A stretch of 64,000 nt of DNA from a virus (IMGVR_UViG_3300030104_007872:1-64000); one strand, 5' to 3'; shown: positions 18,539-54,559, counted from the stretch's first letter. Program-made: numbers and translations. Notes: generated by a model from the letters alone, not told the origin.

Positions 18539-19024
18539 ATGGCGTTAACTGCATTAGGTGAATTAGCTTCGGGAATTCTAAATACTGAATTTGATGATAA
18601 TACTGGAATCGCTACGACAGGAGCGATTAGTGGATGGCTATTCGAAAACCTTGGGCGATTAAATACTTGGATTTATACTGATTTCAGCGGACAGGATGCA
18701 ACTGGCTCTTCAGCAGGAGCATTCAACATTGAGGCGCAGAACATCCATAAAGAATTATATCTTTATCACTACTACAACAAGGAGGCCAGAAACGCCCTCA
18801 GGGGAATCATTCACTCCAATGTGAGTGGAGATAATATTTTATCCTTAAAGGACGGAGAAAGCTCTGTAACGTTCGTTAACAGGAATGAGGTGTCCAAAGT
18901 CTATAAGGGGCTTGCAAGCGATTCTATGGCGAATGTGGAGCGACTAGCGGCACAATACAACATATATCAGGCTGAGCCTAGACAATTAGGTGGCGTTGAC
19001 GGTGACACGGGCTATCTCTACTGA
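18539..19024 (+). CDS. putative head-tail adaptor
   Basis: Position after MCP; SLKDGESSVTF typical of adaptors. Confidence 0.55.
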   Translation: MALTALGELASGILNTEFDDNTGIATTGAISGWLFENLGRLNTWIYTDFSGQDATGSSAGAFNIEAQNIHKELYLYHYYNKEARNALRGIIHSNVSGDNILSLKDGESSVTFVNRNEVSKVYKGLASDSMANVERLAAQYNIYQAEPRQLGGVDGDTGYLY

Positions 19025-19344
19025 GAGGTGGACTTATGACCGTTATACAACTTTTCCATGATTTTCTCCACGTCGAGTTCCAGCATCGAAATTTTTAAAT
19101 TTTGTTTTACGTCGTCTGGGAGGCTTCCACTCCCCCATTTGCCCGCAGGCCAATCGCGTACAAAAATTGCGTGTTTCTCGACATCCTTTCCAATCATTTG
19201 GATTTGGAAATCGTTATGCTGAACTGAGCTTTGCAAGTTCGATGCCCACCAAACAATACCCGCAGCCTGAACGGCTAGACCAATTCCAAGAGAGATGAAG
19301 AACTTGCTGTCTACGGCGCGTTCTTTCCTTGCGTTATGGCTCAT
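19018..19344 (-). CDS. single-pass membrane protein, possibly lysis-related
   Basis: TM segment FFISLGIGLAVQAAGIVWWAS followed by coiled coil. Confidence 0.55.
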   Translation of the reverse strand: MSHNARKERAVDSKFFISLGIGLAVQAAGIVWWASNLQSSVQHNDFQIQMIGKDVEKHAIFVRDWPAGKWGSGSLPDDVKQNLKISMLELDVEKIMEKLYNGHKSTSQ

Positions 19345-19347
19345 GGC

Positions 19348-19572
19348 TTAGCCCTGTATGCCATCAAATAGTCGGGCAGCTTCACTCACAAGTCTCATCT
19401 TGCTTTCGTATGGTAAGCCTAGATCGGAGGCATATTTTTTAGCCTCAGCGTCATTCATAGCGAGTATTTTATACTTGAGACTCTTAGTTCCCTTTATATC
19501 GCCCCAATCTATACCTGTATTAACTTTCTTAGGTTTTTCCTTTTGAACGGGTTTCTTATCTTCGTCATTCAT
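19348..19572 (-). CDS. hypothetical protein
   Basis: ATG at 19572 lies 11 nt after GTGTAA; the longer track start runs through a terminator. Confidence 0.65.
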   Translation of the reverse strand: MNDEDKKPVQKEKPKKVNTGIDWGDIKGTKSLKYKILAMNDAEAKKYASDLGLPYESKMRLVSEAARLFDGIQG

Positions 19573-19590
19573 AACATTTACTATTACACA

Positions 19591-19619
19591 AAAAACCCCG
19601 CTTGTGCAGCGGGGTTTTT
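19591..19619 (-). terminator. rho-independent terminator after the tail tube gene (bidirectional shape)
   Basis: AAAAACCCCGCT-TGTGC-AGCGGGGTTTTT. Confidence 0.88.
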
Positions 19620-19647
19620 CATTTTTTGGTTGATTTAACAAGGACTA

Positions 19648-20865
19648 TTAATCCATTCCGCCAGCATCAGTATCGTAGGTATTGACCGCAAGAGGATATA
19701 TTGGCTGATTGCCTGACAAAACTCCCGTATATACTGTGCAGAAAATACCGTGGTCGGTATCGGCAACACCACCGATTTGAGTTGTAAATGTCAGATCCAC
19801 CGACTTGTTAGCTCCTATGCTTGAAGAGGTGTTCTGACTGTCCATTGTGCAGTTCTTAAGAAGAAACTCATATGCGTTCGTGTCATCCGCCCTGTTTATT
19901 TGCAGCGTTACATCCTTCTCCAAGTTCTTGTCAATGATGTCGGCAAGCACGAAAGCATTTTCGTCGTTTACGAGAGCACTCACGGAAAGTGATGCCACAA
20001 TTGGGAAATCCACAGTTCTTGCATATGCGAACCTGCTCCCAAGTCTGTCGAGAGGCGTTCTGGAAAGTGGAACTGACAGAGAGGCGCTTTGAATGTGCGC
20101 TCCAGTCGCGCCTCCAAGTGCAATGTTGGTTGACTCTTGGGCTCCTTGCAACTCAAGAGTAATATCTCCTGGGCGTAGGGCCAGAGTTTGAGCATCGGTC
20201 ACTTTCCTATCCGCAGCCGAAGGCGCTCCACTTTGGGCGTAAGGAACTTGACACAGCGCATCATATGATGTCCCCTCCTCTTGGTTCACACCTGGACTAT
20301 CTATGCTCATATAACCACCCGTGGCTACTGAGTCTACATTGACATCCGAAATTACGTTAGATCCCTCACAGGTTACAGAAACAGTTGGAATCGAGCCCAC
20401 AGAACAATCAAATGTATAGTCGCTGACATACATGTTGCCAAGACCAAGGAATGTTCCAGTTTTCTTATCGGCGGCATCCTGACCTTCATTAACCGTAAGG
20501 ATAAAGAAGTTAGAGCCTGAAGTTGCTGTTTGGTGACCAGAAGTGAAACTACCACTCATGTTAGCAGTGGAAGCGGAGCCTGCATTATTTTTGCCAGTAA
20601 TGACATAAAAGTTTAAAGCCTTTTCATTAAAACCATCTGTTGGATAATAAGTGAAATCCAAGCTAACGGTGGGCGCGTCAATAACCTCCGTACCGATACG
20701 GGCCAGTTCGCCATATTGGTTAACGTCTGTGCGAGAAAGGTTAAAGCCATAGTTGGCGCTTTGAACCCTCTGTAGTTGAACGTGGTCGCCACTTGTTGTG
20801 GACGCTGCATTAAAACTACAGTAGAGGGCTTCGGACTGGTAAATTACTCTGTTTCTTGATGCCAT
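19648..20865 (-). CDS. major tail tube protein
   Basis: Beta-rich, two repeated tube-like halves (RVQSANYGFNLSRTDVNQYG and HIQSASLSVPLSRTPLDRLG); own terminator; follows neck genes. Confidence 0.75.
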   Translation of the reverse strand: MASRNRVIYQSEALYCSFNAASTTSGDHVQLQRVQSANYGFNLSRTDVNQYGELARIGTEVIDAPTVSLDFTYYPTDGFNEKALNFYVITGKNNAGSASTANMSGSFTSGHQTATSGSNFFILTVNEGQDAADKKTGTFLGLGNMYVSDYTFDCSVGSIPTVSVTCEGSNVISDVNVDSVATGGYMSIDSPGVNQEEGTSYDALCQVPYAQSGAPSAADRKVTDAQTLALRPGDITLELQGAQESTNIALGGATGAHIQSASLSVPLSRTPLDRLGSRFAYARTVDFPIVASLSVSALVNDENAFVLADIIDKNLEKDVTLQINRADDTNAYEFLLKNCTMDSQNTSSSIGANKSVDLTFTTQIGGVADTDHGIFCTVYTGVLSGNQPIYPLAVNTYDTDAGGMD

Positions 20866-20921
20866 AATAAAAAGATCTTTATTTTGTTTACAGTTTAATC
20901 GTTAAAATATGAAATTCAGTA

Positions 20922-21776
20922 TTAGTTTTCAAAGCGATATCTGTGTTGTTGTATGTCGAAATCTATGAAGCCAACATAAAGATCGTTAGCCAAGCTTTTC
21001 CGAACTCTATCGCTTAACTTAGAGGTCTTAGCGCTTTCCACATAAAACATTGTGTTGCCCCCTTGAAATTCGTTTTTTAGCCCCGTATAATTATAGCTGC
21101 CATCTTTTAAATCACCTAATTCTGTTATGGGGTATCCAGTAAACGGGATGTTGCCTATAACCTCATCCACAGAATCCGCAAAAATAGATAGCACCCCATC
21201 TAGTTGGTAGGGGTCTTCAGCAAGAACCACCGCTTTAACCATAACCTCAGTTTGTTGCAGGCCACCAAATGCATAAGGCTTATTTTGAGTGTCCGCTGCG
21301 GCAAGAAAAATAGCGGGAACCACATCATCATAAGGCGCGATGTAATCATAATTTGCTGATGGTAGTCTGGAATTAACCTTATATTTATTTTCTACCACCA
21401 AATCCTCCTCGGTATCATTGGTGAAATAGATGTTAAAATCCTTAACTGCAAAACTACCAGTTACCGCCGCACCTGTGGGCGCCCCAGATGCCAACACTCT
21501 CCCATTATCAAAATCTAATACAACGCCATCGTTTCTACCCGAAAATCCACCATTAATGAAAACGCCAGTGGGAATGTTTGCCCCTGTTATTGAAGAGTCT
21601 GCAACCCATTGTTTATATGGACTTCCAAAAACCGTGTAGGTTGAATCTATTCGGGGGTCGTCGTAGTAAAAAAAATCTCCCGTTTTATCTGAATAAGCCT
21701 CACCTTTGGTGGTGAGAAAATTATCAAACCACAAAAAGAAAGAGGTTGTTAATCTATGTTGGAACTGTTCAATCAT
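20922..21776 (-). CDS. putative tail terminator/completion protein
   Basis: Directly upstream of tube gene; VPAIFL and GFIDFDI. Confidence 0.55.
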   Translation of the reverse strand: MIEQFQHRLTTSFFLWFDNFLTTKGEAYSDKTGDFFYYDDPRIDSTYTVFGSPYKQWVADSSITGANIPTGVFINGGFSGRNDGVVLDFDNGRVLASGAPTGAAVTGSFAVKDFNIYFTNDTEEDLVVENKYKVNSRLPSANYDYIAPYDDVVPAIFLAAADTQNKPYAFGGLQQTEVMVKAVVLAEDPYQLDGVLSIFADSVDEVIGNIPFTGYPITELGDLKDGSYNYTGLKNEFQGGNTMFYVESAKTSKLSDRVRKSLANDLYVGFIDFDIQQHRYRFEN

Positions 21777-22354
21777 TTGAGTTCTTCGAAACGTTGAGTG
21801 TATTTCTTAATAAGCGCGGAAATGTAAGGAGTGTTGCTAAATCTTCCACCCCTTACCTTTACACGGCTTTGAATCGCTGCGCCCGATCTACCTTTATTTT
21901 TTCGCAAAAGGTAGCCCAATCCCGAAATCCCGCGCTCTATTCCTTGAGCCCAACTTCTTCCAAATGCCCAAGGCAACGGCGTAATGGCAAAGATATCTTC
22001 AGCAGTTGGTATACTAACCTGAAAGTTGTTGCCTATTCCTCCTTGTGTAATTGGCGCTATATATCTAATCTCTGTTGCTTCAAGGAGTGAAAGTATCGGC
22101 ATTATGGGTTCGTCGCCACTATCAAAACCAATAAAAGCAAATAAGTTGGTTACCCCATTCAGGGTTCCGCTGATATTTGTTCCACTAGGGCCGCTTTTGA
22201 TTTCTTGCGTCACAGGATGACCTAAGAATTCAGCTATCATCTCCTTTTTAATTCTTTTAAATTTTTCAGAGATCTCTTTTTCAAAGGGTTTTCTTAAAAG
22301 CTTGGGTGTTTGCCGCTTTAGAGCCCTTCTAACGTCTTGTGGTAATGTGGCCAT
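21773..22354 (-). CDS. putative neck/tail completion protein
   Basis: Synteny; SWAQGIERG and NTPYISALI resemble HK97 gp10-like proteins. Confidence 0.5.
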   Translation of the reverse strand: MATLPQDVRRALKRQTPKLLRKPFEKEISEKFKRIKKEMIAEFLGHPVTQEIKSGPSGTNISGTLNGVTNLFAFIGFDSGDEPIMPILSLLEATEIRYIAPITQGGIGNNFQVSIPTAEDIFAITPLPWAFGRSWAQGIERGISGLGYLLRKNKGRSGAAIQSRVKVRGGRFSNTPYISALIKKYTQRFEELK

Positions 22355-22818
22355 TAATCGTCGATGGGGGTAAGCAGGAACGTAAAAAATTGATTATCAA
22401 ACAAACCCGAGGGATTGCCATCGCTTTTTATTGAAAATTTTCGCCCGTCGAATTCGACCCTTCGAGCTTCCCTGATGTAATCATAAGCGCTTTCCTGCAC
22501 TACAATTTTTACAGAACCAGCAGGAAGAATAATCTTGTTTTGTGAACCGCCCTGTTCCCCTGGGTCTGAAATATACTCTTTTTCTAAATCCTGATAATAT
22601 ATTCTAGCGGTAAAACTGCTAGATACCGTTGAGTATTCCACTGAGGTATTTGATCCTGTATTAGTGCGCTTATACAGGGCGTTCCATGATGGTGTTGAAG
22701 CTATTAAGGTTTTTTTAGCATTTTTATAAACTGTAATACTTTGTGCAAACGTGTCGTGTAAAATTGTAGCCAAATCCTTAATTTTGGTTACTTGTTCTGG
22801 TTTTAAAAATCCCGCCAT
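22354..22818 (-). CDS. putative head closure protein
   Basis: Synteny; RVEFDGRKFSI motif. Confidence 0.55.
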   Translation of the reverse strand: MAGFLKPEQVTKIKDLATILHDTFAQSITVYKNAKKTLIASTPSWNALYKRTNTGSNTSVEYSTVSSSFTARIYYQDLEKEYISDPGEQGGSQNKIILPAGSVKIVVQESAYDYIREARRVEFDGRKFSIKSDGNPSGLFDNQFFTFLLTPIDD

Positions 22819-22863
22819 ATTGATTTTTACACTTTTATTTATATAATAAGATAGGATTAAGGC

Positions 22864-23154
22864 ATGGATGCGAAAAAAAAATTAATTAAGGGCTCTGAAA
22901 AAGAAGTCTCTGGACTCTTTAAAATGATGTTAATGATGGTCGAAGACATGAAAAAAGACCACGATTTTCATTATGATAAGCTTTATGAGAATATCCCTAA
23001 GGAACACCACCCAATAATTAATGCGGCTAATCACTTTACCCCCGAAAAGGTAGCTTGGATTCGCAAGAGAATTTTGGATTTTGGAAACGAATCAATTAGA
23101 AATATAGGCTCTGAGTTTGATAATTATAAGGTAAGCTTCATATTTAAAAATTAA
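22864..23154 (+). CDS. hypothetical protein
   Basis: 96-aa ORF after TATAAT. Confidence 0.75.
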   Translation: MDAKKKLIKGSEKEVSGLFKMMLMMVEDMKKDHDFHYDKLYENIPKEHHPIINAANHFTPEKVAWIRKRILDFGNESIRNIGSEFDNYKVSFIFKN

Positions 23155-23166
23155 AGGAATAAGGTT

Positions 23167-24902: not shown

Positions 24903-24935
24903 ATCTTTGTGTAAATAATACAAAGGTTAACGGAA

Positions 24936-27900
24936 ATGCCAGTTAGAATACCAGTAACAGAAACAGGATTAGAGGCCAGTATATTAGAGGCTACCCGTAG
25001 GGCTGGCGCTAAAGCGGGAAAAAATTTAAAAATAAATCTGGGGACTAACCCCAAAAGTATAGAGGCTCTTTCGCAACCACTAGGGCGTATTACTGGAAAA
25101 GCCGACGAATTTACCAAGTCAATGGAGGCGGCTAACGCTCGTGTGTTGGCATTCGGTGCATCCGTTGGGGTTCTGAGTGCGGTAACCAAAGGCTTTAAGG
25201 ATTTAGTTACGGTTACAATTGAAGTTGAAAAGCAATTAACTTCAATTAACACCATTGTTGGGGGCACTGCTGCTGAATTATCTAAGTTCAAAAAAGAAAT
25301 CTTTGATGTTGCTCGGGAGACCGAGCAATCGTTCGATACTGTGGCCGAGGCCGCTCTTGAATTAAGTCGTCAAGGTCTCAGCGCTGAGGATGTCCTTAAG
25401 AGATTGGGTGATTCTATGATCCTAACTCGACTGTCTGGCTTGGGTGCTGGCGAGGCTGTGGCAGGACTAACTGCGGCAATCAACTCTTTTACTAAAGCTG
25501 GGGTTACAAGCGAAGAGGTGTTGAATAAGCTTTCTGCGGCAGCGGTTTCCGCAGCGGTTTCCGAAAGAGATTTGATTGAAGGTATTAAGCGTTCGGGCGC
25601 TGTTGCGGTTCAGGCGGGCGTTAGTCTAGATGAGCTTATTGGTGTAATTTCCGCAGTTCAACAAAGAACAGCGCGGGGTGGTTCAGTTATCGGTAACTCC
25701 TTCAAGACTATTTTTACGAGAATCCAGAGTTTGGATAAGCTGGAGACGATGCAGAATCTTGGGGTGCAGGTTACAGATCTTCAAGGGGATGTTTTACCTG
25801 CTATTCAGCTTATTAAAAATTTAGCAGGAGCTTTAAATGCTTTACCTGAAGCCAAGCAACTTCAAATTGCAGAAAAATTAGTTGGTAAATTTCAAATTGC
25901 ACCTTTTTTGGCTATTTTAGAAGATTATAATTCTGAAGCTCAGATAGCTATAGAGGTTACTAAAGTTGCACAAAACGCTACTACAGAAGCTTATCAACGA
26001 AATGTTGCTCTTAACAAAACTTTGTCAGCAGCAATTAATGAGGCGACAATTAATCTAAAGGAGTTAGCCAACACATTGGGTGAAATTGGTGTAACCGACA
26101 GCCTGAAAAATATTCTTGGCTTTTTTAACACTTTGGTAAGTAAAATCCAAGATGTTATGGAGGGCGAAGGTCTTGGAAGCGATTTTGCAAGAGCGATAGT
26201 CAAGGGCATCAGTAATGTTATTAGCGGACCTGGGTTAGCGATCTTTGGAGCCATCATTGCTAAATTAACAATTGATTTAGCTAAGTTTGGAACGAAGGCT
26301 CTTACTACATTCTTTGGCATGAATAGTGCCGCCAAGCAAATTGCGACTACGCAAGGAGCAATAGCGTCAACTCTTTTAAGTAATCAGGAAATTCAAAAAC
26401 GAATTTTAAGTATAGAAAATTCTACTCTTAGTGTTGAGCAAAAGAGGAAGGCCCAGATGGACTTTTTCACAACGGCCTTAAACGCTCAATATGCTACCAT
26501 GCAAAAAATGCAGACTATTGCGGGTCGCATAGCTCCTGGGGTAGTCAAAGGAACATCTGGCGGTGGTCGAGGTGCAGGAGGATTTGTTCCAAATTTCGAT
26601 GCCGTGAGGGGTTATGGCCCACAACGAGGCATGATTCCAAATTTCGATGCGGTGAGAGGTTACGCTCAAGAGAATGCTGATATTAGTCGCGGCGTAGGTG
26701 GAGCACCCGCTTCGGCTAGACCCGTAGCTATTCCTAATTTTAATTTTGGTCAAGGACAGAGAGGCACAATGATCGCCAACACCAGTGAGGTGATGGTTCC
26801 AAATTATGCTGGCGGGGGATCTGCCATCTTTAATCGCGACATGATAGGGGCGGCAGGGATGCCGCGTGGCGCTCGCTCAATTACAGGTGCTAGCGGATAT
26901 ATACCGAATTTCCAGAGGGGACTTAAAAAAGATCAGGCTGGCTTCGAACATTCTTTTAGAAATGCGAGCATATCCAACTTAGATAAGACTATTGCCAACA
27001 GTAAGAATGCTGCCGCCGTTGCCGCAGCCAAGGCTGTCAAGGACAAGAGACAGGGTAAGAAGGCTGGGGTCATAAGCTTTAATGCCAAAGACTATGGGGT
27101 CGCTGCGATGTTTGCTGGCAAGGGTTCCGCAGTTAGGTCGGTTAACCAACAACTAGACACGCTCATAAAGTCGGGGGGAGAAGCGGCGCTCAGGGCGAGT
27201 CAGCTAAAAAAGATGGGCGCGACAGCTATTAATTATTCTGGCGTTCAAGTGCAAGACTTGGAGTCCATGAAAAACCGCAAGCGCGGGAAAATTAATGAAC
27301 CGAGTAACCGAAGGGCGCTGTCGCGTTTTTTCCTTAAGCCTCTTCAGCGTTATGGTAACTTTATGACCGATACCATATTTGATGGTAACGAATTAGCTCA
27401 AATTCAAAATCAAAACAGAAAATTTGTTAGCGGTCCAGATATTTTTTCGAGTTCAGTAGAGGGTGGTCTTTTCGAGGCTGCAATTAGGCTTGTCACTAAA
27501 GGCGCGAAAGCCAGTAGGGCTTTTAAATCCCATAGCGATTCCCAAGCTGCATTTGATTTTGAGGAGACATCACCTCCACAACAGGGCTTTAAAGACGCTT
27601 TTGGTTTTGGCAGAAATCTTAGGAGGGCTGACGCAAAGAGAACTGCGGACGCAGACTCAGTAAGAACACTTATAAGCAAGACTTTAAGAACTGATGACGG
27701 GTTTCAAGCTATGAAATCCGCCGCAAGGAGACAGGGCTTCAAGGGTGCTGCTTCTGGTTATATTCCAAATTTCGCTTCACCGCTTCAAGATGCCATTGCA
27801 AGAGAAATGTCTGCTGGCATACCAATTAATCAAGTAAGGATCAATCAAGATGGTGGTCTTCGTAATGCTGGAAACCCAATGGGTCTGGCGGTGACTAATA

Positions 27901-30900
27901 TTCGGGATGAGCCTACGGGGGCTATTCCAAGGGGAGCGGGGGGTTTTGTTCCAAATTATAATATTGGTATGGGGCTGCGCCCCCCAGCGGCTGCTGCTGG
28001 TGGTGCTGGCCCTCAGAGTTTGGGGGCAAGAGCCTTAGACAAAAGCCTGAAGGGTTTGTCGGCATCAGTAAGAGCAACAGGTAAGGGCATTGTCGCCTTG
28101 GGTGGCTCGGCGGGACTGGGAATTGAAAAGCTTTTTGCTCTTCAGATTGGCATGACCGCTCTAACAGGCATGACTTCCGAAGCGGAGAGTGGTATGGGTA
28201 AATTTGCTCACGGTTTGAGTAGCGCGTTAAACGCGGTCGTTATGACCAGTTTTGCAATGCAAGGTCTTCAGGGTTTTGCGAAAGAGGGGAGTGCGGCGGC
28301 TGGTGTACTGGGTAAGTTGGGTGTAGCAGCCGTTGGAGCAACTGTAGCGTTTCAGGTTTTTAAGGGCTTAAAGTCTATATTTAATGAGGTCACAGGAGTA
28401 AATAAGTCTGCTAACGTGCAGATAGCATTATTGGCGGATGCCGCCAAAGATGCAAGCTTAAGTCTTGCAGGCTTAACCGCTGTGCAACAAAATGAGCTAA
28501 AGGAGGAGGCTAAGGAAATTTTTGAGGCGAGGGGCGGCGAAGGTAGATTTAAGTTCAGGGGTTTTCAAGGAGACGACGAAGAGATTGAGCAACGATTTGG
28601 AGAAGCTATTGCTTTCGCTCGGCAAGGCGGCACGGGTAGGGCAGAGATAAATAGGCTCATAACAGAAATGTTTGAGATCACATCGGGCACCAGAATAATA
28701 GTGGATGAGTTTGAGGGGATCATAGACGCGAGTACAGTTACCAATGAGGTAATTGAAAGAACTTTAGCTAAAATACTAGACTCAGGAAGGGATACCGCAG
28801 AGCGAATTGACAGAATTCTTAGTGGCGTTGGCGAACGGGAGCGTGGAATTTTAGGCAGGCCACGACCAGATCAATCCACGCCAACAATCTTTGGTTTACC
28901 CGTTCTGTCACCACAACAGATTGGTGGGGAGCTACAAAGAAGGGCTGTACGGGATGAATTGAAAAAGGAGCTAATGCTTAGGGCCAAGATAGATGACGTA
29001 ACCGCAGAGCAGAAAGTTAGGGAATTCGAGATGGCTCAGGTTATTGCTGAAAAAAATAACAATCTGGAAAAGGAAGCTAATGTTAGACGCATGGCCGCGA
29101 ATGAAGCCAAGCAGATCTTGGACATTGAAATTAAAATGGCTCAAATTCAAGTCGAAAACAAAGCGGCCATTAAGGATGTGCAAGACCAAAGAAAAATCAT
29201 CATGGGTCTTTCAGATGCCGAAATCGCGAATATGCGAGAACAAAAGGGGCTGCGTGATATTGAAGTAGCTGCACATAAAAATATTCTCAGCTTAATAAAG
29301 GATGAGGTTGGAAACATAGAAGAATTAACACTTGAGCAAAGAGAACAGCAAATAGTAGCACAAGCACTGGCTGGTCTTGATAGGAAACAGCTTCAAGATA
29401 AGGAGGCAATCAAATCCGTCTTGATTAACACTATTGATCTTCAAGGCAAGGAGGGTGATGCTTTAAGAATAGCAGAAGCATTAGCAAATGGAAAATTAGA
29501 TGCGGTCTTTAGAGAGATGGAGTTAAGAAAGCGTGGTCTTGTCGATTTGGAAAAAGAACGAAGGGAAAACGAACAAATTACCAGAAGTATTAAAGAGCGT
29601 TTGGAGTTCGCTAAACTTGCGGCGGGGGGCCAGAGATTTGAGACTGAACTGGGCACTCGCCAGAGAAGGACTGAGTTAGGTCTCCAACGAGAGAGAATTC
29701 AGGAAAGCACTATGAGGGACGCCCAAAAGAATCGAGCCCTAGCGGAAATAGCCAATGAACTTGCCGAACTTGATTTGACTGATGCCAAGGCTCAAGCCAT
29801 TGAAAAAACCACGACGAGCGTAGAGGAGCTTATTTCAAAAATCCCCAGTCTTGAATCTGCTCTTAGACCCTTGTTGAATATGCTTGCTGACCCCGTTCAA
29901 GGTGGAACTGGAGCGCAGATTTCTGAAGTGGGAGAGGGAGTAAGGAAAGCTGTCGCTGCGAGCGGTGGAGTTGGGGCGCAATTTATGAGTCCCATTGTTC
30001 AGGAAGTCGTCGGGGTTGGGTTGTCTTCTGAAATGAAACTGGCGGCTGCTGCAACTGCTCAAGAAACAGAGGAAACGGGTAAATTGACTCAGGCGAAGGA
30101 GGCCGAGACAAAAGCCACAAATGACCAAAGAACTACATTGGCAGGCGTTAATAAAGCTCTTATTAGTTTAAGAAGAAATTTAATCGGTGCTACTGACGCT
30201 GGCTCCATAGTCTCAGCAATCAGGGACGAACAAAAAGAATTAAGAACTGGCGCAAGAGGAGTAACTGACATTAGCGAATCTGGCATAGAGTTTGATTTCG
30301 CTAAACAGAAAATACTTGATCAACAATTTTTAGCTCAGACACAAGCCGAATCCAATCAACTCGGTAGGCAGTTGGACTTCTTAGATCGAATGAGAGACGT
30401 TAAGGCGGCGATGTTGAGGGGTGACATCAATCGTGAGGAAGCTGCTCGGAAAATTTTACAAATTGAAAAGGAAAGGTTGGCTGTAAACAGCACCCTTGCC
30501 AACAGATGGAAGGATACTTTTGACACTAGTGCTGCCGAAAGACAAAGACAAATAACCAACGCTTGGGTTTCAGGTGCAAAACAATTTGCAGATGCCATTG
30601 GCAACGGTTTGGTGGATGCCATTGCGAAGGGTGAATCGTTAGGCGATTCGCTTCGTAATGCCGCTGCAAGTTTTGCAGATATGATGGCGCGAGCCTACAT
30701 GCAACAGGCGGCAAATCGAATAGTTGGTAATGTTGGTGGCGGCATGATAAGTGGCGGTGGCGGTGGAGGCGGCATTGGCGGCGGCGGCATTTTGAGGGGC
30801 ATTGGTAATTTCATTGGCGGGCTTTTCCAAAGCGGTGGAATGGTTAGGGGTGGCTCTGGAACCAAAGATGATGTGCCTGCCGTCTTGACGGGTGGCGAAT

Positions 30901-31958
30901 TTGTAATGAGGAGAGGTGCCGTTAGCAAATACGGCGCTCCTTTTATGGAGGCTTTAAACGCAGGAGCGGTTACAGGCTTTCAGTATGGCGGAAGAGTTCA
31001 GAGGGGTAATAATTTATTTACTCCAAGTAAGAGCCGTGGATCAATAGTTGGGTCTAGTAATTTACTAAGATTTGCAACTCAGGGCTTCACTAGTGGCGCC
31101 TCAGATGTAATTGTTGGAGGCTCTGGTGTGGCGGGTATTGGCTTGGAAGCTGAAAGTGTCCGCTTAACAAATCGTGGCAGAATGCTTGGTCCTCGTGCTG
31201 AGAGATTAAGGGAATCCAAACAAACCGCTTTTGGTTTAGTTGGTGAGCAGGAGGGCATAATGGCCAATTATAGGGAAAAGCTTTTACAGCAAAAACTTGC
31301 CAAAAAAGAAGAAAAGAAAAGGAAGAAGGAGCAGGAAGCTCAAGAAAAATATCAGAGAGAATTAGAAAAATTTCGAAGAGCAGAACAAAGAAGACAGGAG
31401 AAACGCTCTATGTGGACTAGTCTGGCTATAATTGCGGGCGGCGCTCTTTTAGGTGGAGGATTTGGTGGTTACTCAAGTCAAGTTGGTGCCGCATATGGAG
31501 GAACCGCAAACATGACCGTTGCAGGAAGCATGGCGGATAGAAGCTTCGCTAACACAGGTGGTGGACTTTTTCCCCGTGCCGCAGGGGGATATGTTCCCCG
31601 TGCCGCAGGTGTAGATACGGTTCCATCAATGTTGTCGGGTGGCGAATTTGTGATGAATGCTGGAGCCACACAGCGTTTGGGTTCAGCTAATCTAAATGCT
31701 CTGAATTCAGGCGGGGGCTCTTTAGGAGGCTCTCCAGATATAGTCGCTAAGCTAGATGAACTTATTACCGTAACCAGCGAGGGTCATGGAGACATAAATA
31801 TTGTGGTTAACTCAGATGGAGGTGGGCAAGTGCAAGGGGGAGCCGCTCCAGAAGCTGCGGCCTCAGCCCAGCGCCAATTAGCTGAATCGCTCAAACAAGC
31901 GGTGGTGAAAGAGATTGAAAACCAGAAAAGACTTGGGGGCGCCCTTAGAAGAAGATAA
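24936..31958 (+). CDS. tape measure protein
   Basis: 2340 aa; TP901-like N-terminal core (GSVIGNSFKTIFTRI), A/G-rich helices, C-terminal VPAxLxGGEFVM motifs. Confidence 0.93.
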   Translation: MPVRIPVTETGLEASILEATRRAGAKAGKNLKINLGTNPKSIEALSQPLGRITGKADEFTKSMEAANARVLAFGASVGVLSAVTKGFKDLVTVTIEVEKQLTSINTIVGGTAAELSKFKKEIFDVARETEQSFDTVAEAALELSRQGLSAEDVLKRLGDSMILTRLSGLGAGEAVAGLTAAINSFTKAGVTSEEVLNKLSAAAVSAAVSERDLIEGIKRSGAVAVQAGVSLDELIGVISAVQQRTARGGSVIGNSFKTIFTRIQSLDKLETMQNLGVQVTDLQGDVLPAIQLIKNLAGALNALPEAKQLQIAEKLVGKFQIAPFLAILEDYNSEAQIAIEVTKVAQNATTEAYQRNVALNKTLSAAINEATINLKELANTLGEIGVTDSLKNILGFFNTLVSKIQDVMEGEGLGSDFARAIVKGISNVISGPGLAIFGAIIAKLTIDLAKFGTKALTTFFGMNSAAKQIATTQGAIASTLLSNQEIQKRILSIENSTLSVEQKRKAQMDFFTTALNAQYATMQKMQTIAGRIAPGVVKGTSGGGRGAGGFVPNFDAVRGYGPQRGMIPNFDAVRGYAQENADISRGVGGAPASARPVAIPNFNFGQGQRGTMIANTSEVMVPNYAGGGSAIFNRDMIGAAGMPRGARSITGASGYIPNFQRGLKKDQAGFEHSFRNASISNLDKTIANSKNAAAVAAAKAVKDKRQGKKAGVISFNAKDYGVAAMFAGKGSAVRSVNQQLDTLIKSGGEAALRASQLKKMGATAINYSGVQVQDLESMKNRKRGKINEPSNRRALSRFFLKPLQRYGNFMTDTIFDGNELAQIQNQNRKFVSGPDIFSSSVEGGLFEAAIRLVTKGAKASRAFKSHSDSQAAFDFEETSPPQQGFKDAFGFGRNLRRADAKRTADADSVRTLISKTLRTDDGFQAMKSAARRQGFKGAASGYIPNFASPLQDAIAREMSAGIPINQVRINQDGGLRNAGNPMGLAVTNIRDEPTGAIPRGAGGFVPNYNIGMGLRPPAAAAGGAGPQSLGARALDKSLKGLSASVRATGKGIVALGGSAGLGIEKLFALQIGMTALTGMTSEAESGMGKFAHGLSSALNAVVMTSFAMQGLQGFAKEGSAAAGVLGKLGVAAVGATVAFQVFKGLKSIFNEVTGVNKSANVQIALLADAAKDASLSLAGLTAVQQNELKEEAKEIFEARGGEGRFKFRGFQGDDEEIEQRFGEAIAFARQGGTGRAEINRLITEMFEITSGTRIIVDEFEGIIDASTVTNEVIERTLAKILDSGRDTAERIDRILSGVGERERGILGRPRPDQSTPTIFGLPVLSPQQIGGELQRRAVRDELKKELMLRAKIDDVTAEQKVREFEMAQVIAEKNNNLEKEANVRRMAANEAKQILDIEIKMAQIQVENKAAIKDVQDQRKIIMGLSDAEIANMREQKGLRDIEVAAHKNILSLIKDEVGNIEELTLEQREQQIVAQALAGLDRKQLQDKEAIKSVLINTIDLQGKEGDALRIAEALANGKLDAVFREMELRKRGLVDLEKERRENEQITRSIKERLEFAKLAAGGQRFETELGTRQRRTELGLQRERIQESTMRDAQKNRALAEIANELAELDLTDAKAQAIEKTTTSVEELISKIPSLESALRPLLNMLADPVQGGTGAQISEVGEGVRKAVAASGGVGAQFMSPIVQEVVGVGLSSEMKLAAAATAQETEETGKLTQAKEAETKATNDQRTTLAGVNKALISLRRNLIGATDAGSIVSAIRDEQKELRTGARGVTDISESGIEFDFAKQKILDQQFLAQTQAESNQLGRQLDFLDRMRDVKAAMLRGDINREEAARKILQIEKERLAVNSTLANRWKDTFDTSAAERQRQITNAWVSGAKQFADAIGNGLVDAIAKGESLGDSLRNAAASFADMMARAYMQQAANRIVGNVGGGMISGGGGGGGIGGGGILRGIGNFIGGLFQSGGMVRGGSGTKDDVPAVLTGGEFVMRRGAVSKYGAPFMEALNAGAVTGFQYGGRVQRGNNLFTPSKSRGSIVGSSNLLRFATQGFTSGASDVIVGGSGVAGIGLEAESVRLTNRGRMLGPRAERLRESKQTAFGLVGEQEGIMANYREKLLQQKLAKKEEKKRKKEQEAQEKYQRELEKFRRAEQRRQEKRSMWTSLAIIAGGALLGGGFGGYSSQVGAAYGGTANMTVAGSMADRSFANTGGGLFPRAAGGYVPRAAGVDTVPSMLSGGEFVMNAGATQRLGSANLNALNSGGGSLGGSPDIVAKLDELITVTSEGHGDINIVVNSDGGGQVQGGAAPEAAASAQRQLAESLKQAVVKEIENQKRLGGALRRR

Positions 31959-32752
31959 TGTTTGGAGCGCGTTTAAATTATGAGTCCAGATTTTTTGTCA
32001 CTGGGCAGGAATTGTCTGGCATTGACTCTATTGACATAGGATACGCTAACGCCACGAATATTTTGCAGCCACTTGGCTTTCCGACGGGCTTAACAGTCGT
32101 TGCTGGCCCGACAGAAGAATCTTTGTCGCTCTCTAGGTATCTTGTTTATGACGATCCCATTCTTGCTTTTACGGGTGACTCATGCATGTCGGGTAGTATT
32201 AATTATCAAGGAAAAGCCTATGGTTTTGATAGTGGTTACCTAAATAATTATTCCGTCAATTGCGCCGTGGGCAACATTCCGAGGGTCAATGCTAGTTTTT
32301 TAGTTTATGATGAAATGAGGACTGGGGATGGTGCTGACGCCTCAGGCGCCATAGCCGCGCCAACACTTCACATACCCAATCAAGGTTCCATCACTGTCAC
32401 TTGCGATAATTCAACAACCAACAGAGTTGTTGGTTTTGATTATTCAATTACCTGCAATCGCAAGCCTTATTACACAATAGGTTCTGAAAAGGCGGCTGAT
32501 GTAAAATTGATACCGCCGCTGATCTATAATGCTACGGTTCAATTGGACGTTGATGACGCCTTCATGGAAAGTGGATTTAGTTTCTTGGGAACAGGTAAAG
32601 AGCAAAGAGGCGTTTCATTTACCATCAATGGTCGCGATGGAACTGCTCTGCAATCTCTTACTGTCCCTCAAGCCTGTTTAACATCTGAGCAGTTAAATGC
32701 TTCGGCGGATGGCGCATTAAGATTAACTCTAACTTATATGGGACACTCATGA
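31958..32752 (+). CDS. tail-tube-fold distal tail protein
   Basis: Follows TMP; GYLNNYSVNCAVGNIPRVNASF matches the tube protein motif. Confidence 0.65.
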   Translation: MFGARLNYESRFFVTGQELSGIDSIDIGYANATNILQPLGFPTGLTVVAGPTEESLSLSRYLVYDDPILAFTGDSCMSGSINYQGKAYGFDSGYLNNYSVNCAVGNIPRVNASFLVYDEMRTGDGADASGAIAAPTLHIPNQGSITVTCDNSTTNRVVGFDYSITCNRKPYYTIGSEKAADVKLIPPLIYNATVQLDVDDAFMESGFSFLGTGKEQRGVSFTINGRDGTALQSLTVPQACLTSEQLNASADGALRLTLTYMGHS

Positions 32753-33729
32753 GCGAAGATTTATTTTACAACAGAGACAGAAATATATCAGGTGTTTCTA
32801 CGCCCACTGAATTAACGTCACTAAACCTTACGCCTTCTTATGGCTCACAGGTGCAATTCAGCGCCAATAATGGTGAATACGTTACAGATAATTTTTATAC
32901 CAATAGGATTCCCTTATCTTTAAATAGCTTATCTGCCTCCTTTAGGGTTAGGTATCAAGTTAATGAAGTGAATGGTAGGAGGTTAGCTAATTTCTTTGAA
33001 AGCAAATCTGGAAATCGCAGTTTTGAATTCAACCCCGACAGTTCCAGAATTTATAAAAATGTATCAGGTTTTTGCAATTCATACCTGATCAATTTTACAA
33101 ACAATCAGCATTATGATGTCGCGGCAGAAGTGTCCTGTGATACGGGGCCAACTCTCTTAAAATGGTCGGGTGGGTGTTATGTTAATACGGGTGTTCGTAA
33201 ATGGCATGTAGGAGAACAATATCATAAGTATGATATTATTTATACTGGCATAAACCCACAAAACAAGCTGGATAACTTTTATTATGCGACTGCTACCCAT
33301 ACAGCGTCGAGTCCTGAAGCGGATGGCCCTTCAGGAACTAGCCCTCAATGGACACAAGACTTCTTTTTTAACCCAGATATAGGATTAAGTACGCAAGTGG
33401 ACATAAAAGTGGACAAATTAAATTATGAGAATTCAGTCACAGAAAGACTAAAAACAAGTCAGAATGCCGCATCCATGTCGTTTAGTTATACATTTAAAGA
33501 TTTACCAGAAAGACAGACCAAGGCAATGTTGCACTTTTTAGAAAACAAAGGTGGCTATAGAAGGTTTAAAGTTGGCATAACGGGAACAGCGGGTGTTTTG
33601 CCTATTTATAATAGATCTAAAGTTTGTCATTCTCCTAGCTGGTCTCATACTTGGAAATATTTTGATTCGAATGACCTTCAGGTGACATTAATTGAAGACC
33701 CAATGGGTGTAATTCCAACAGGAACATAA
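32749..33729 (+). CDS. minor tail protein (two lambda gpM-like halves around a small carbohydrate-binding-like insert)
   Basis: LANFFESKSGNRSF and MLHFLENKGGYRRF repeats; WHVGEQYHKYDIIY insert. Confidence 0.6.
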   Translation: MSEDLFYNRDRNISGVSTPTELTSLNLTPSYGSQVQFSANNGEYVTDNFYTNRIPLSLNSLSASFRVRYQVNEVNGRRLANFFESKSGNRSFEFNPDSSRIYKNVSGFCNSYLINFTNNQHYDVAAEVSCDTGPTLLKWSGGCYVNTGVRKWHVGEQYHKYDIIYTGINPQNKLDNFYYATATHTASSPEADGPSGTSPQWTQDFFFNPDIGLSTQVDIKVDKLNYENSVTERLKTSQNAASMSFSYTFKDLPERQTKAMLHFLENKGGYRRFKVGITGTAGVLPIYNRSKVCHSPSWSHTWKYFDSNDLQVTLIEDPMGVIPTGT

Positions 33730-33731
33730 CA

Positions 33732-34823
33732 ATGCCTCGTAACAGGAATATAATAAAAAGCAATAATACTGCTGTGGCCGTGCAAAATGGTGGTGGAAAC
33801 GCCTTTTCGACAATCGATCTGGATTTAAACTTATTCACCACGGTTCAGGATGGCAACTACAACGTATCATTCGAGCGCTCACCCTTGAAACAAGTGGGGA
33901 GTCAGCTTTACACCACTCAAGATCTTGTTAGGCAACCAGATGTAGAGTTGGCGCTTTCATATTACCCTGAGCCCAGCATGTCAAATGAGAACTTTGGTGG
34001 CCTATTAAAGACTTATCCAACGGCTGACTCCATACAGGCACTTTCGGGCGTAACGGATTTTTCCACCAATTTTTTTGTTTTAACTGCACCCTACCAAGGC
34101 GATGATGCTTTAGAAAAGATAGCGTTCGATGAGGCGAGTAATGATCTCAGTGATTGGGATGCAACGGTCTTTGGAAATTGTTATTTAACAAGTTATCAAT
34201 TAACTTATGCTGCGCGACAATTGCCAGTTGCATCGATGGGATTTGTTTGCTCAAATATGCAATTTGAAACCTTAACTGGAACCACAATGGAGTCGCCCGC
34301 AGTCAATCTGGAAAACGGAAACGCTACTGGCGGTAAGTGTTTGTTTCAATTTGATAACGCCATACGAGATCCCGTGATTGTAAACCCTAATTCTACGGGT
34401 AGCAGTGTAACTTTACAAAATTTACAGGTTGGTGGTCAGCGGCTTGTTGACAAACACCTTATTCAATCAGTGGATATGTCGATAACCATGGATAGAGCAT
34501 CCATGTATGGCCTTGGTAATAATTTTGCTTATGATAGAAAGCTGGAGCTTCCAGCAAGGGGAAGCTTTAATGTTTCCTCTCTTGTATCGGGTGTCAGTCA
34601 AACTACTGGCTCTGTCACGGGTTTATTAACAGGGGATTCCTCTTATGACTTCGAATTGGTTTTAGAAGGAAGCGGTAAGAGCATGAGATATTCCATTGAG
34701 GGTGCTAAGCTAAATTCAATTAGTTATGGAATGCCAATCGGCAGCTTCATGACTTATGATGCGAGTTTTAATTTTGAGGTTACCGAATCTTACGGTTTAC
34801 GAGTAAGAGGTACAGCTTATTAG
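33732..34823 (+). CDS. tail tube paralogue
   Basis: Collinear motif similarity to 19648..20865 along its length. Confidence 0.7.
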   Translation: MPRNRNIIKSNNTAVAVQNGGGNAFSTIDLDLNLFTTVQDGNYNVSFERSPLKQVGSQLYTTQDLVRQPDVELALSYYPEPSMSNENFGGLLKTYPTADSIQALSGVTDFSTNFFVLTAPYQGDDALEKIAFDEASNDLSDWDATVFGNCYLTSYQLTYAARQLPVASMGFVCSNMQFETLTGTTMESPAVNLENGNATGGKCLFQFDNAIRDPVIVNPNSTGSSVTLQNLQVGGQRLVDKHLIQSVDMSITMDRASMYGLGNNFAYDRKLELPARGSFNVSSLVSGVSQTTGSVTGLLTGDSSYDFELVLEGSGKSMRYSIEGAKLNSISYGMPIGSFMTYDASFNFEVTESYGLRVRGTAY

Positions 34824-35203: not shown

Positions 35204-35213
35204 AATGCATTAT

Positions 35214-35247
35214 AAAAAAAAGAGAGGGTATTTCTACCCCCTCTTTC
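35214..35247 (-). terminator. rho-independent terminator after Hsp20
   Basis: Minus strand GAGGGGTA-GAAA-TACCCTCTC followed by a T-run. Confidence 0.8.
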
Positions 35248-48443: not shown

Positions 48444-48445
48444 TT

Positions 48446-49375: not shown

Positions 49376-49380
49376 ATTTA

Positions 49381-52093: not shown

Positions 52094-52097
52094 AACG

Positions 52098-54558: not shown

Positions 54559-54559
54559 C

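What the first reader, a model, noticed from the sequence alone, without database searches (positions are those of the whole stretch)
18539..34823. Ser/Thr-Gly enrichment in neck and tail proteins: candidate glycosylation sequon
Hand counts of SG/TG dipeptides: 8 in 161 aa (18539, about 8 of 17 Gly), 11 in the tube (19648), 9 in 284 aa (20922, about 9 of 24 Gly), 10 in 264 aa (31958), 10 in 326 aa (32749, about 10 of 22 Gly), 9 in 363 aa (33732, including VSGVSQTTGSVTGLLTGDS) and 6 in 5082. The 379-aa major capsid protein has only 2. Unrelated folds sharing the bias suggests selection for a modification motif. Ser-Gly is the known attachment site for eukaryotic proteoglycan chains. Inference: [S/T]-G is the acceptor motif for the glycan cluster.
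Basis: partly seen in the sequence, partly recalled or inferred. Interest (0 to 1): 0.82.

Follow-up and report, generated by a model that had tools for sequence, protein, structure and literature searches.

The report
Ser/Thr-Gly excess in phage tail proteins

Summary
Observation confirmed. All hand counts are exact. In 11 neck/tail proteins [ST]G occurs 71 times against 34 expected (z 7.1). TG and SG are the top two of 400 dipeptides. The reversed G[ST] is not enriched, and neither are head, tape-measure or enzyme proteins. Lambda, T5, SPP1, T4 and S-CBS4 tails give O/E 1.03-1.25. The bias is lineage-wide: 125 terminator homologs at 27-55% identity keep O/E about 2.

The link to this window's 20-kb glycan cluster fails. 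Two complete relatives lack the whole cluster (Maf, NeuB, GTs) and show a stronger bias, with 52-69% of Gly following S/T in outer domains of gpJ-like, gpL-like and fibre proteins and almost none in their buried cores. Those relatives carry different GT cassettes at the same slot and two conserved putative GTs, so a generalised glycosylation reading survives.

The sites sit at ordinary polar-residue+Gly turn corners, which lambda, SPP1 and S-CBS4 fill with Asn/Asp. The unusual feature is the Ser/Thr choice.

Best reading: O-glycosylation acceptor corners served by lineage-core transferases (0.4). A modification-free structural idiom is nearly as likely (0.35).

The scan has found the same signature on other DNA in at least 35 genomes.

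The parts
18048..18518 (+). small Lys-rich protein after the capsid gene (neck/head-completion by position); [ST]G 3 vs 0.8 expected
   Evidence: z 2.7; no Pfam or PHROG family
18539..19024 (+). 161-aa neck protein, possibly a head-tail adaptor; strongest bias in the window, 8 of 17 Gly follow S/T
   Evidence: 8 vs 2.4, z 4.3; 71 homologs O/E 2.39; the only core protein still enriched after masking conserved sites (1.54); Atlas lead SU10_adaptor 0.88 only; no PDB sequence hit
19648..20865 (-). major tail tube protein, T5 pb6-type duplicated tube fold; 11 vs 7.0
   Evidence: AF2 pLDDT 75; Foldseek T5/DT57C tube and tip proteins E 1e-10 to 1e-7; S109-G110 and S116-G117 conserved in 95-98% of 42 homologs
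20922..21776 (-). tail terminator (gpU / T4 gp15 / T5 p142 fold) with extension; 9 of 24 Gly follow S/T
   Evidence: AF2 pLDDT 87; Foldseek terminators E 2e-4, prob 0.99-1.0; 125 diverse homologs O/E 1.9-2.2, with sites 32, 64, 70 and 106 conserved as [S/T]-G with S/T exchange
21773..22354 (-). neck/tail-completion protein (by position); 6 vs 2.4
   Evidence: z 2.6; 41 homologs O/E 2.30, three invariant Ser-Gly
22354..22818 (-). neck protein (by position); not enriched (2 vs 1.7)
   Evidence: family O/E 0.73
24936..31958 (+). tape measure protein, 2340 aa; not enriched (37 vs 31.1)
31958..32752 (+). tube-like tail-tip protein; 10 vs 4.7
   Evidence: z 2.8; Pfam Phage_tube_2 1.5e-4; weak hhalign to tube
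32749..33729 (+). gpM-like minor tail protein with extension; 10 of 22 Gly follow S/T
   Evidence: z 3.2; Pfam Phage_min_tail 4.9e-8; 7 of the 10 sites lie outside the gpM-like part
33732..34823 (+). full-length paralogue of the tail tube; 9 vs 6.0 (not significant alone)
   Evidence: hhalign 99.3%, E 1.6e-20
16820..17959 (+). major capsid protein; motif under-represented (2 vs 2.8 here; 80 relatives O/E 0.44, no conserved site)
35673..36752 (-). lineage-core putative GT-B glycosyltransferase, in the ssb operon next to the tail module; candidate initiating enzyme (inferred)
   Evidence: PHROG 2170 glycosyltransferase 1.6e-13; weak Glycos_transf_1 hit in the G001 ortholog; present in 13 of 15 related records; no Pfam or PDB sequence hit
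41045..61166 (+). glycan island of this phage (GT1/GT2, DegT, NeuB, CMP-transferase, Maf-like and others) up to the GMD gene; the part 41045-58986 is absent from complete relatives, while GMD (60123-61166) is conserved
   Evidence: Pfam; tblastn; different cassettes at the same slot; no TM segments except one hydrophobic stretch in the Maf-like protein
50160..51248 (+). Maf/MptE-like (DUF115) transferase next to NeuB; the only family in the window known to put sugars on protein Ser/Thr
   Evidence: PF01973 4.2e-15, 56 bits against cut-off 34.6; absent from 15 related records
5082..5984 (+).

Best explanation
The [S/T]-Gly pairs occupy 'polar residue + Gly' corners of beta-turns and beta-bulges in the beta-rich neck, terminator, tube and tail-tip proteins. 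Lambda, SPP1 and S-CBS4 fill the same kind of corner with Asn/Asp-Gly. In this phage lineage a hydroxyl residue has been systematically selected at such corners in tail proteins, and most of all in outer tail domains. The capsid protein and the buried hub cores of gpJ-like and gpL-like proteins have fewer [ST]G than composition predicts. The most likely reason, which is inferred and not shown, is that these Ser/Thr are acceptor sites for cytoplasmic O-glycosylation of tail proteins before assembly. The first sugar would be added by a transferase conserved across the lineage. Candidates are the 359-aa GT-B-like gene at 35673-36752 and a ~640-aa GT1-like gene seen in relatives. The hypervariable, membrane-free sugar island (here 41-59 kb, with a nonulosonic-acid pathway and a Maf-like enzyme) would supply and diversify the sugars. 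It is therefore not the sequon 'of' this window's cluster. Shown here: the bias, its direction, its domain restriction, its conservation, and its independence from the island. Inferred: any modification at all, and which enzyme performs it.
For: (1) The excess is S/T-specific and one-directional: [ST]G 71 vs 34 (z 7.1), while [ND]G is 23 vs 27 and G[ST] is flat. (2) It is not needed by the folds. Lambda, SPP1, T4, T5 and S-CBS4 tails give 1.03-1.25. Lambda J's distal Ig/FN3 part has 20% of Gly after S/T, against 65-69% in the matching add-on of this lineage. (3) It appears in several unrelated folds of one virion: terminator, tube, gpM-like, two neck proteins, gpL add-on, gpJ add-on, fibre shafts. 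(4) It is restricted to particular domains within single proteins. gpJ-like: add-on 28/43 Gly vs N-terminal part plus core 4/56 (P 6e-10). gpL-like: add-on 25/45 vs core 0/14. Fibre: shaft 46/66 vs tip 5/37. The add-ons are not internally repetitive. (5) Counts below expectation where a glycan would hurt: MCP family O/E 0.44, g14637 0.49, gpJ cores 0.3-0.6, against 0.99-2.0 in five control MCPs. (6) The gpL add-on keeps 25/25/25 sites in three homologs at about 42% identity, although 10-11 sit at different positions in each comparison with G001. (7) The lineage always carries cytoplasmic glycan genes: two core putative GTs, GMD, and a variable island without TM proteins. This window adds a Maf-type enzyme, and that family is known to glycosylate protein Ser/Thr (PMC11339370). 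(8) No thymidylate-synthase-family gene was found, which argues against hydroxymethyl-pyrimidine DNA glycosylation as the glycans' target.
Against: There is no chemical evidence. In the window's core proteins, S/T before Gly is no better conserved than other S/T (0.59 vs 0.61). Masking the 4-6 conserved sites per protein removes the excess in the tube, terminator, g21773 and g23167, so much of the window's signal is a handful of ancient positions. Those positions behave as turn corners: they sit mostly at strand ends or in loops in the AF2 models, and N/D make up 31% of replacements when Gly is kept, against 17% elsewhere. Some sites lie inside strands or helices. T5, which has no GT1/GT2 hit, shows a mild version: TG and SG rank 4 and 5 without its fibre. 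S-CBS4 has GTs in its structural module and no bias. G002's alternative gpL add-on uses N/D-Gly. The core 'GT' at 35673 has only PHROG-level and weak GT1 support, and it sits in a DNA-metabolism operon. No bacterial O-GT with an S/T-G preference turned up in the literature searches. Surface exposure could not be computed.
Confidence: 0.4

Rival explanations
1. Purely structural idiom. Ser/Thr-Gly is this lineage's inherited way of building polar-Gly beta-turn corners in tube, terminator, Ig/FN3-like and fibre-shaft domains. It spread by descent and domain shuffling, and no modification is involved.
For: The combined [NDST]G excess is ordinary for siphophage tails (this phage 1.54, lambda 1.39, SPP1 1.28, T5 1.26). 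Sites are mostly at strand ends or in loops. N/D are the favoured substitutes when Gly is kept. The excess in core proteins is carried by a few deeply conserved sites, one of them shared between tube paralogues. It is independent of which glycan genes are present. T5 has no GT1/GT2 hit and shows a mild version. Fibre shafts are built from repeats that carry the motif.
Against: It does not explain why S/T is preferred over N/D by about 3:1 to 14:1 in many unrelated folds of one lineage. It does not explain why the same proteins' buried cores and the capsid fall below expectation, or why non-repetitive add-ons reach 52-69% of all Gly. It does not explain why the same fold class in lambda lacks it.
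Confidence: 0.35
2. Chemical-stability selection. Exposed Asn-Gly and Asp-Gly corners deamidate or isomerise quickly. Long-lived aquatic virions replace them with chemically inert Ser/Thr-Gly in flexible outer domains, while rigid buried cores can keep N/D-Gly.
For: [ND]G is at or below expectation exactly where [ST]G is high: tail pool 0.85, gpJ add-on 1-2 vs about 5 in G001, G003 and G004. Cores keep [ND]G (gpL core 5 vs 2.1). NG is strongly depleted in the tape measure (2 vs 12.3) and in the enzymes (20 vs 31). The fast deamidation of Asn-Gly is established protein chemistry (own knowledge).
Against: It does not predict the shortfall of [ST]G in the capsid and hub cores. G002's gpL add-on and S-CBS4, another aquatic phage, are rich in N/D-Gly. 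Head proteins of this phage have normal [ND]G (1.09).
Confidence: 0.12
3. [S/T]-G is the acceptor motif of the window's own 20-kb cluster, for example nonulosonic acid put on by the Maf-like enzyme.
For: The Maf-like gene lies beside NeuB and a CMP-sugar synthetase. Maf enzymes O-glycosylate Ser/Thr of flagellins (PMC11339370). The island has no membrane proteins.
Against: Fifteen related records have no Maf. Two complete genomes lack the whole cluster yet keep or exceed the bias. The motif is conserved in terminator homologs down to 27% identity, so it is far older than this island. Maf enzymes have no known sequon and reject non-cognate substrates (PMC11339370).
Confidence: 0.05
4. Composition artefact or chance.
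For: Three of the seven proteins named are not individually significant.
Against: Pooled z is 7.1 after within-protein shuffling. TG and SG are ranks 1 and 2 of 400. The top six of 68 ORFs are all neck/tail proteins (P 4e-6). The result is replicated in hundreds of homologs.
Confidence: 0.01

Closest known systems
Virion O-glycosylation of mycobacteriophages by phage-encoded glycosyltransferases (Freeman et al. 2023, as described in PMC12619734)
   Same: Phage-encoded cytoplasmic GTs would decorate virion proteins before assembly. GT genes lie near structural genes.
   Different: In mycobacteriophages the glycans sit on the C-termini of the capsid and tail-tube subunits. Here the capsid protein has fewer [ST]G than expected, and the candidate sites are internal turn corners of neck, tail and tail-tip proteins. 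No glycan has been shown here.
Maf flagellin nonulosonic-acid glycosyltransferases (PMC11339370)
   Same: The window encodes a PF01973 (MptE/Maf-like) protein beside NeuB and a CMP-sugar synthetase. Maf enzymes modify surface-exposed Ser/Thr held in local loop conformations on a structural filament protein.
   Different: No sequon is known for Maf, only a preference for apolar neighbours. Maf enzymes reject non-cognate substrates. Maf is absent from all 15 relatives searched, which nevertheless share the S/T-G bias.
Bacterial autotransporter heptosyltransferases TibC/AAH (PMC4358343)
   Same: A cytoplasmic GT-B enzyme modifies many serines at strand-loop-strand corners of a beta-rich surface protein before export. 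This is the nearest mechanistic analogy for a corner-directed O-GT.
   Different: No GT9/heptosyltransferase domain or iron-finger was detected in the candidate GTs. The sugar is ADP-heptose and the substrate a beta-helix passenger. No S/T-G rule is stated in that paper.
Generic 'polar residue + Gly' beta-turn / G1-bulge corners of beta-rich proteins (textbook structural knowledge)
   Same: Position at strand ends. Gly is often exchangeable with Asn. S/T is exchangeable with N/D. The combined [NDST]G excess is similar to other siphophage tails.
   Different: Elsewhere Asn/Asp dominate or share these corners. Here Ser/Thr take nearly all of them, and only in tail-surface proteins and domains.
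Eukaryotic proteoglycan Ser-Gly xylosylation
   Same: Ser-Gly dipeptide as an O-glycan attachment point.
   Different: Thr is used as often as Ser here. There is no marked acidic flank and no GT14-type xylosyltransferase in the window. An exostosin-like GT47 domain occurs only in relative G002.

Membership tests
Phage virion glycosylation system (mycobacteriophage type) | Phage-encoded glycosyltransferases present | tested here: met
   GT1/GT2/Glyco_trans_1_2 genes in the island; core putative GTs in the lineage
Phage virion glycosylation system (mycobacteriophage type) | Glycans demonstrated on virion proteins | not testable with these tools
   Needs mass spectrometry or glycan staining of virions
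Phage virion glycosylation system (mycobacteriophage type) | Acceptor sites at the C-termini of capsid and tail-tube subunits | tested here: not met
   MCP has 2 [ST]G, neither near its C-terminus (281, 310 of 379), and family O/E is 0.44. Only tube sites 380 and 384 of 405 lie near its C-terminus, and they are not conserved (5% each)
Maf-type protein O-nonulosonylation | MptE/DUF115 (PF01973) domain above the curated cut-off | tested here: met
   50160-51248: 56.4 bits against cut-off 34.6
Maf-type protein O-nonulosonylation | Adjacent nonulosonic-acid synthase and CMP-activating enzyme | tested here: met
   NeuB at 51245-52093, CTP_transf_3 at 54560-55237
Maf-type protein O-nonulosonylation | Enzyme co-occurs with the proposed acceptor motif across relatives | tested here: not met
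   0 of 15 related records have PF01973, although all that contain the tail genes share the bias
Glycosylation sequon (short linear acceptor motif) | Motif over-represented after composition correction, and directional | tested here: met
   71 vs 34, z 7.1; G[ST] flat
Glycosylation sequon (short linear acceptor motif) | Motif enriched in exposed parts and below expectation in buried or lattice-forming parts | tested here: inconclusive
   Outer add-ons 52-69% of Gly vs cores 0-9%; MCP O/E 0.44. 'Outer' rests on domain architecture, because solvent exposure could not be computed from the models
Glycosylation sequon (short linear acceptor motif) | Motif absent from relatives that lack the transferase | tested here: inconclusive
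   No GT-free relative exists among the records held. Relatives lacking this window's island keep the motif
Glycosylation sequon (short linear acceptor motif) | Acceptor residue more conserved than the same residue elsewhere | tested here: not met
   S/T before Gly 0.59 vs other S/T 0.61 in the window's protein families
Autotransporter heptosyltransferase (BAHT) system | GT9-type heptosyltransferase catalytic domain in the candidate enzyme | tested here: not met
   No Pfam family at E<=0.01 for 35673-36752. The 640-aa core GT hits only Glycos_transf_1 and DUF4214
Proteoglycan Ser-Gly xylosylation | Acidic residues flanking Ser-Gly; Ser only | tested here: not met
   T (36) is as frequent as S (35). 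The flank shows at most a 1.6-fold excess of D at -4 and +1 relative to the dipeptide

The most novel reading that the evidence does not exclude
[S/T]-Gly at beta-turn corners is a genuine O-glycosylation sequon. It is read by a conserved cytoplasmic phage transferase that coats the outer tail, tail-tip and fibre-shaft domains of an abundant lineage of aquatic T5-like siphophages. A hypervariable sugar island (nonulosonic acids here, mannosyl/exostosin-type cassettes in relatives) diversifies the coat like a serotype locus. Capsid and hub cores have evolved to avoid the motif.
Probability: 0.3. Interest if true: 0.85.

Novelty: new variant of a known kind. Interest (0 to 1): 0.6.

Why it matters
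Phage virion glycosylation is so far documented for mycobacteriophages, at subunit C-termini. If the S/T-Gly corners are real acceptor sites, three things follow. They would be the first sequence-readable sequon for phage protein O-glycosylation. Glycosylated virion surfaces could then be predicted from metagenomes. The large, variable, membrane-free sugar islands of abundant aquatic phages would be explained as a variable tail coat, for example for shielding from host or grazer recognition or from proteases. If the sites are not modified, the result still matters. A whole phage lineage would have replaced Asn/Asp-Gly with Ser/Thr-Gly at exposed turn corners, which calls for a physical explanation such as resistance to deamidation. 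It would also warn against reading dipeptide biases as modification motifs.

Tried and rejected
(1) DNA-level motif: rejected, because 28 different codon pairs occur at the 71 sites.

(2) Extended consensus around the sites: none found, only weak apolar or small residues at -1.

(3) Generic property of tail folds: rejected against lambda, T5, SPP1, T4 and S-CBS4. T5 is mildly positive.

(4) Continual regeneration of the motif in the window's core proteins: not supported. Masking conserved columns removes the excess except in 18539.

(5) Mapping conserved sites onto solved T5 pb6 and p142: hhalign finds no alignment.

(6) Finding distant sub-lineages in IMG/VR to test for GT-free members: the profile was too diverse for the tool, and two distant representatives gave no loci.

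(7) Cultured relatives: MCP, tube and the 35673 protein have no usable hits in 50,697 phage records.

(8) Identity of 18539: no Pfam, PHROG or PDB match, and only a weak adaptor lead.

(9) DNA hypermodification as the target of the glycan genes: no thymidylate-synthase-family gene. This is weakened but not excluded.

(10) Freeman et al. 2023 could not be opened. It is cited only through PMC12619734.

Only DSSP strings were used.

Full report
WHAT THE WINDOW IS. The window is the first 64 kb of a 78-kb IMG/VR viral record. It encodes a terminase (9741), a probable portal (11722), a capsid protein (16820) and an inverted neck-tube block on the minus strand (19018-22818). A 2340-aa tape measure (24936) and three tail-tip genes (31958-34823) follow, then an ssb operon on the minus strand. 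After ribonucleotide reductase comes a 20-kb block of sugar-pathway and transferase genes, then RecA-like and DnaB-like genes. AF2 models plus Foldseek identify 19648-20865 as a T5 pb6-type duplicated tail-tube protein (E 1e-10). They identify 20922-21776 as a tail terminator of the gpU / T4 gp15 / T5 p142 fold. 33732-34823 is a full-length paralogue of the tube (hhalign 99.3%). 31958 is tube-like and 32749 is gpM-like. No cultured phage shares the capsid or tube at the sequence level. The capsid protein has at least 595 relatives in viral metagenome contigs at 70-78% identity.

THE OBSERVATION. All hand counts are exact. With residues shuffled within each protein, [ST]G is significantly over-represented in six proteins:
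- 18539: 8 vs 2.4
- 20922: 9 vs 3.2
- 32749: 10 vs 4.3
- 31958: 10 vs 4.7

The tube, its paralogue and the 5082 protein are not individually significant. Pooled over 11 neck/tail proteins, TG (36 vs 15.2) and SG (35 vs 18.3) are the two most over-represented of all 400 dipeptides. No other residue before Gly is enriched, and GS and GT are not. Head proteins, the tape measure and 30 enzymes show nothing. In an unbiased ranking of 68 ORFs the top six are all neck/tail proteins (P 4e-6). Codons at the sites vary freely and there is no wider consensus.

IT IS A LINEAGE TRAIT AND NOT GENERIC. Homologs from 80 related contigs keep the bias: O/E is 2.39, 2.12, 2.30 and 2.25 for the 18539, 20922, 21773 and 23167 families. 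The capsid family (0.44) and the 14637 family (0.49) fall below expectation. A whole-library profile search found 622 terminator homologs. 125 full-length representatives at 27-55% identity keep O/E at 1.9-2.2. Four positions are conserved as [S/T]-Gly with free Ser/Thr exchange. Annotated tail proteins of lambda, T5, SPP1 and T4 give 1.03-1.25. T5 shares the tail architecture and gave no GT1/GT2 hit. It shows a mild version when its L-shaped fibre is left out (TG rank 4, SG rank 5, O/E about 1.5).

THE LINK TO THIS WINDOW'S GLYCAN CLUSTER FAILS. Two related records are complete genomes (G001 133.8 kb with terminal repeats, G002 140 kb). Both are syntenic with the window from terminase to DnaB. 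Both have no homolog of any gene from 41045 to 58986, and none of 15 related records has a Maf-type domain. Yet their bias is stronger. Genome-wide [ST]G O/E is 1.28-1.44 against 0.95-1.00 for G[ST], and single proteins reach 36 vs 11.2 (z 9.1) and 51 vs 24.2 (z 6.7).

These relatives are not GT-free. Between RNR and the conserved GDP-mannose dehydratase, G001 has a CAP59-like transferase, a HAD hydrolase, a nucleotidyltransferase and an FkbM methyltransferase. G002 has a GT15 mannosyltransferase, an exostosin-like GT47 protein and a GT2. The slot is therefore a hypervariable glycan island. Two further putative transferases are core to the lineage. One is the 359-aa protein at 35673-36752 (13 of 15 records; PHROG 'glycosyltransferase'; weak GT1 hit). 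The other is a ~640-aa GT1-like protein, present in the eight relatives at or above 65% completeness or otherwise holding that region. The island proteins of the window have no transmembrane segments, so their product is made and presumably used in the cytoplasm.

WHERE THE MOTIF SITS. In the relatives the most biased proteins are tail-tip proteins: gpL-like (Phage_tail_L plus DUF7402), gpJ-like (Phage-tail_3) and BppL_N-type fibres. Within them the bias is restricted to particular domains.
- gpJ-like: 4 of 56 Gly follow S/T in the first 935 residues, against 28 of 43 in the C-terminal 425 residues (P 6e-10).
- gpL-like: 0 of 14 in the conserved core, against 25 of 45 in the add-on.
- Fibre: 46 of 66 in the shaft, against 5 of 37 in the C-terminal globular part.

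The same holds in orthologs at 42-50% identity (65-69% of Gly). The gpJ and gpL add-ons are not internally repetitive. The fibre shafts are built of about 31-residue repeats with four or five S/T-Gly each. An Atlas lead places the gpJ add-on with the Ig-like/FN3 domains of lambda-type J proteins. Lambda J's own distal part has only 20% of Gly after S/T and is rich in Asn/Asp-Gly. Three gpL add-ons at about 42% identity each carry exactly 25 sites, although 10-11 sit at different positions in each comparison with G001. G002 has a non-homologous add-on that uses Asn/Asp-Gly instead (18 vs 8.6). The tail-tip genes are not in this window's 78-kb record. Its remaining 14 kb holds unbiased replication-type genes.

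WHAT KIND OF POSITION IT IS. In the two AF2 models the sites lie mostly at strand ends and in loops, with a few inside strands or helices. When a homolog has lost the Ser/Thr but kept the Gly, Asn and Asp make up 31% of the replacements, against 17% at other Ser/Thr. The combined excess of [N,D,S,T]-Gly is ordinary for siphophage tails: 1.54 here, 1.39 lambda, 1.28 SPP1, 1.26 T5. Lambda, SPP1 and S-CBS4 fill these corners with Asn/Asp ([ND]G 1.88, 1.47, 1.37; [ST]G about 1.05). This lineage uses Ser/Thr ([ST]G 2.08, [ND]G 0.85). So the positions are structural turn corners, and the unusual thing is the systematic choice of a hydroxyl residue. In the window's own core proteins the excess rests on 4-6 ancient conserved sites per protein. 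Masking them leaves O/E at 0.5-1.0, except in 18539 (1.54). Ser/Thr before Gly is no better conserved than other Ser/Thr.

WEIGHING THE EXPLANATIONS. A purely structural idiom explains the positions, the deep conservation, the independence from the island and the mild T5 signal. It does not explain the following:
- why unrelated folds of one virion all prefer Ser/Thr over Asn/Asp;
- why the preference stops at domain borders inside single proteins;
- why the capsid and hub cores fall below expectation, when five control capsid proteins lie at O/E 0.99-2.0;
- why the same fold class in lambda lacks it.

A hydroxyl-directed modification of tail surfaces explains those points. It also fits the constant presence of cytoplasmic sugar genes and, in this window, a Maf-type enzyme. 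That family is known only for O-glycosylating Ser/Thr of a filament protein (PMC11339370), though with no sequon and strict substrate choice. Against it: there is no chemistry, there is no known O-GT with this preference, the core 'GT' annotation is weak, and S-CBS4 has GTs inside its structural module without any bias. Avoidance of deamidation-prone Asn-Gly in exposed loops is a third possibility. It fits the reciprocal N/D against S/T pattern but not the shortfall in the capsid. DNA glycosylation as the island's purpose is weakened by the absence of a thymidylate-synthase-family gene but is not excluded.

RELATION TO EARLIER SCAN NOTES. The scan has flagged the same signature in at least 35 other genomes. 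Follow-up agents there reached similar 'confirmed / partly supported' verdicts. Those notes supplied three leads: the autotransporter-heptosyltransferase comparison, the idea of looking at outer lineage-specific domains, and the point that a GT follows ssb. I tested each here. They are not counted as evidence.

NOVELTY AND VERDICT. The signal is real, strong and unexplained by published work that I could find. The nearest known system, mycobacteriophage virion glycosylation, differs in site type and target proteins. As a candidate sequon it would be a new variant of a known kind. As it stands it is a well-characterised statistical signature with two nearly balanced explanations, and its proposed tie to this window's cluster is not supported.

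Noticed in passing
window 41045-58986; G001 115236-118570 (L091:15236-18570); G002 63260-67734 (L096:3260-7734): The slot between ribonucleotide reductase and the conserved GDP-mannose dehydratase is a hypervariable glycan island. This phage has a 19-kb nonulosonic-acid/deoxysugar/Maf set. G001 has a CAP59-like transferase, HAD, nucleotidyltransferase and FkbM methyltransferase. G002 has GT15, an exostosin-like GT47 (with RXYLT1_C) and GT2. Several of these are families better known from eukaryotes.
   Followed up: partly
window 16820-17959 and 14637-16124; L001-L080: The capsid protein family and the 495-aa head protein family are depleted in [ST]G (O/E 0.44 and 0.49, no conserved site), while G[ST] in the capsid family is 1.5. 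Capsid proteins of lambda, T5, SPP1, T4 and S-CBS4 lie at 0.99-2.0.
   Followed up: partly
window 24936-31958: The tape measure has a strong Gly-Gly excess (53 vs 30.5, z 4.7) and marked depletion of Asn-Gly (2 vs 12.3) and Asp-Gly (4 vs 10.9).
   Followed up: no
window 19018-22818 (minus strand), 31958-34823: T5-like tail architecture. The duplicated pb6-type tube has one full-length paralogue (33732) and one tube-like protein (31958) at the tip. The neck-terminator-tube block is inverted relative to the head and tape-measure genes.
   Followed up: partly
L086:4639-7533 (G001), L094:8323-9498 (G002): Fibre-like proteins are built of repeats of about 31 residues of the type RPSE-TG-AFYAASNP-SG-FI-TG-VDLSAYV-TG, with four or five S/T-Gly per repeat. 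Only weak BppL_N hits were found, and no Pfam repeat family.
   Followed up: partly
L108 (G002 33089-36100 region): G002's gpL-like protein carries an add-on domain unrelated to that of G001/G003/G004 (18% identity). It is rich in Asn/Asp-Gly (18 vs 8.6) and not in Ser/Thr-Gly, which suggests a recently swapped domain inside a lineage that otherwise uses S/T-Gly.
   Followed up: no
window 19018-19344 (minus strand): A 108-aa protein at the end of the neck-tube block has one transmembrane-like segment (residues 15-34). It is found in only 2 of 80 related loci.
   Followed up: no
window 9741-17959 (head protein pool): The His-His dipeptide occurs 5 times against 0.5 expected (z 6.6) in the pooled head proteins. 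The sites were not located.
   Followed up: no
whole record (G000): CheckV rates the 78-kb record as 29% complete, but complete syntenic relatives are 134-140 kb. The record is therefore probably about half a genome, and the missing part should hold the tail-tip/fibre genes and the second core GT.
   Followed up: partly
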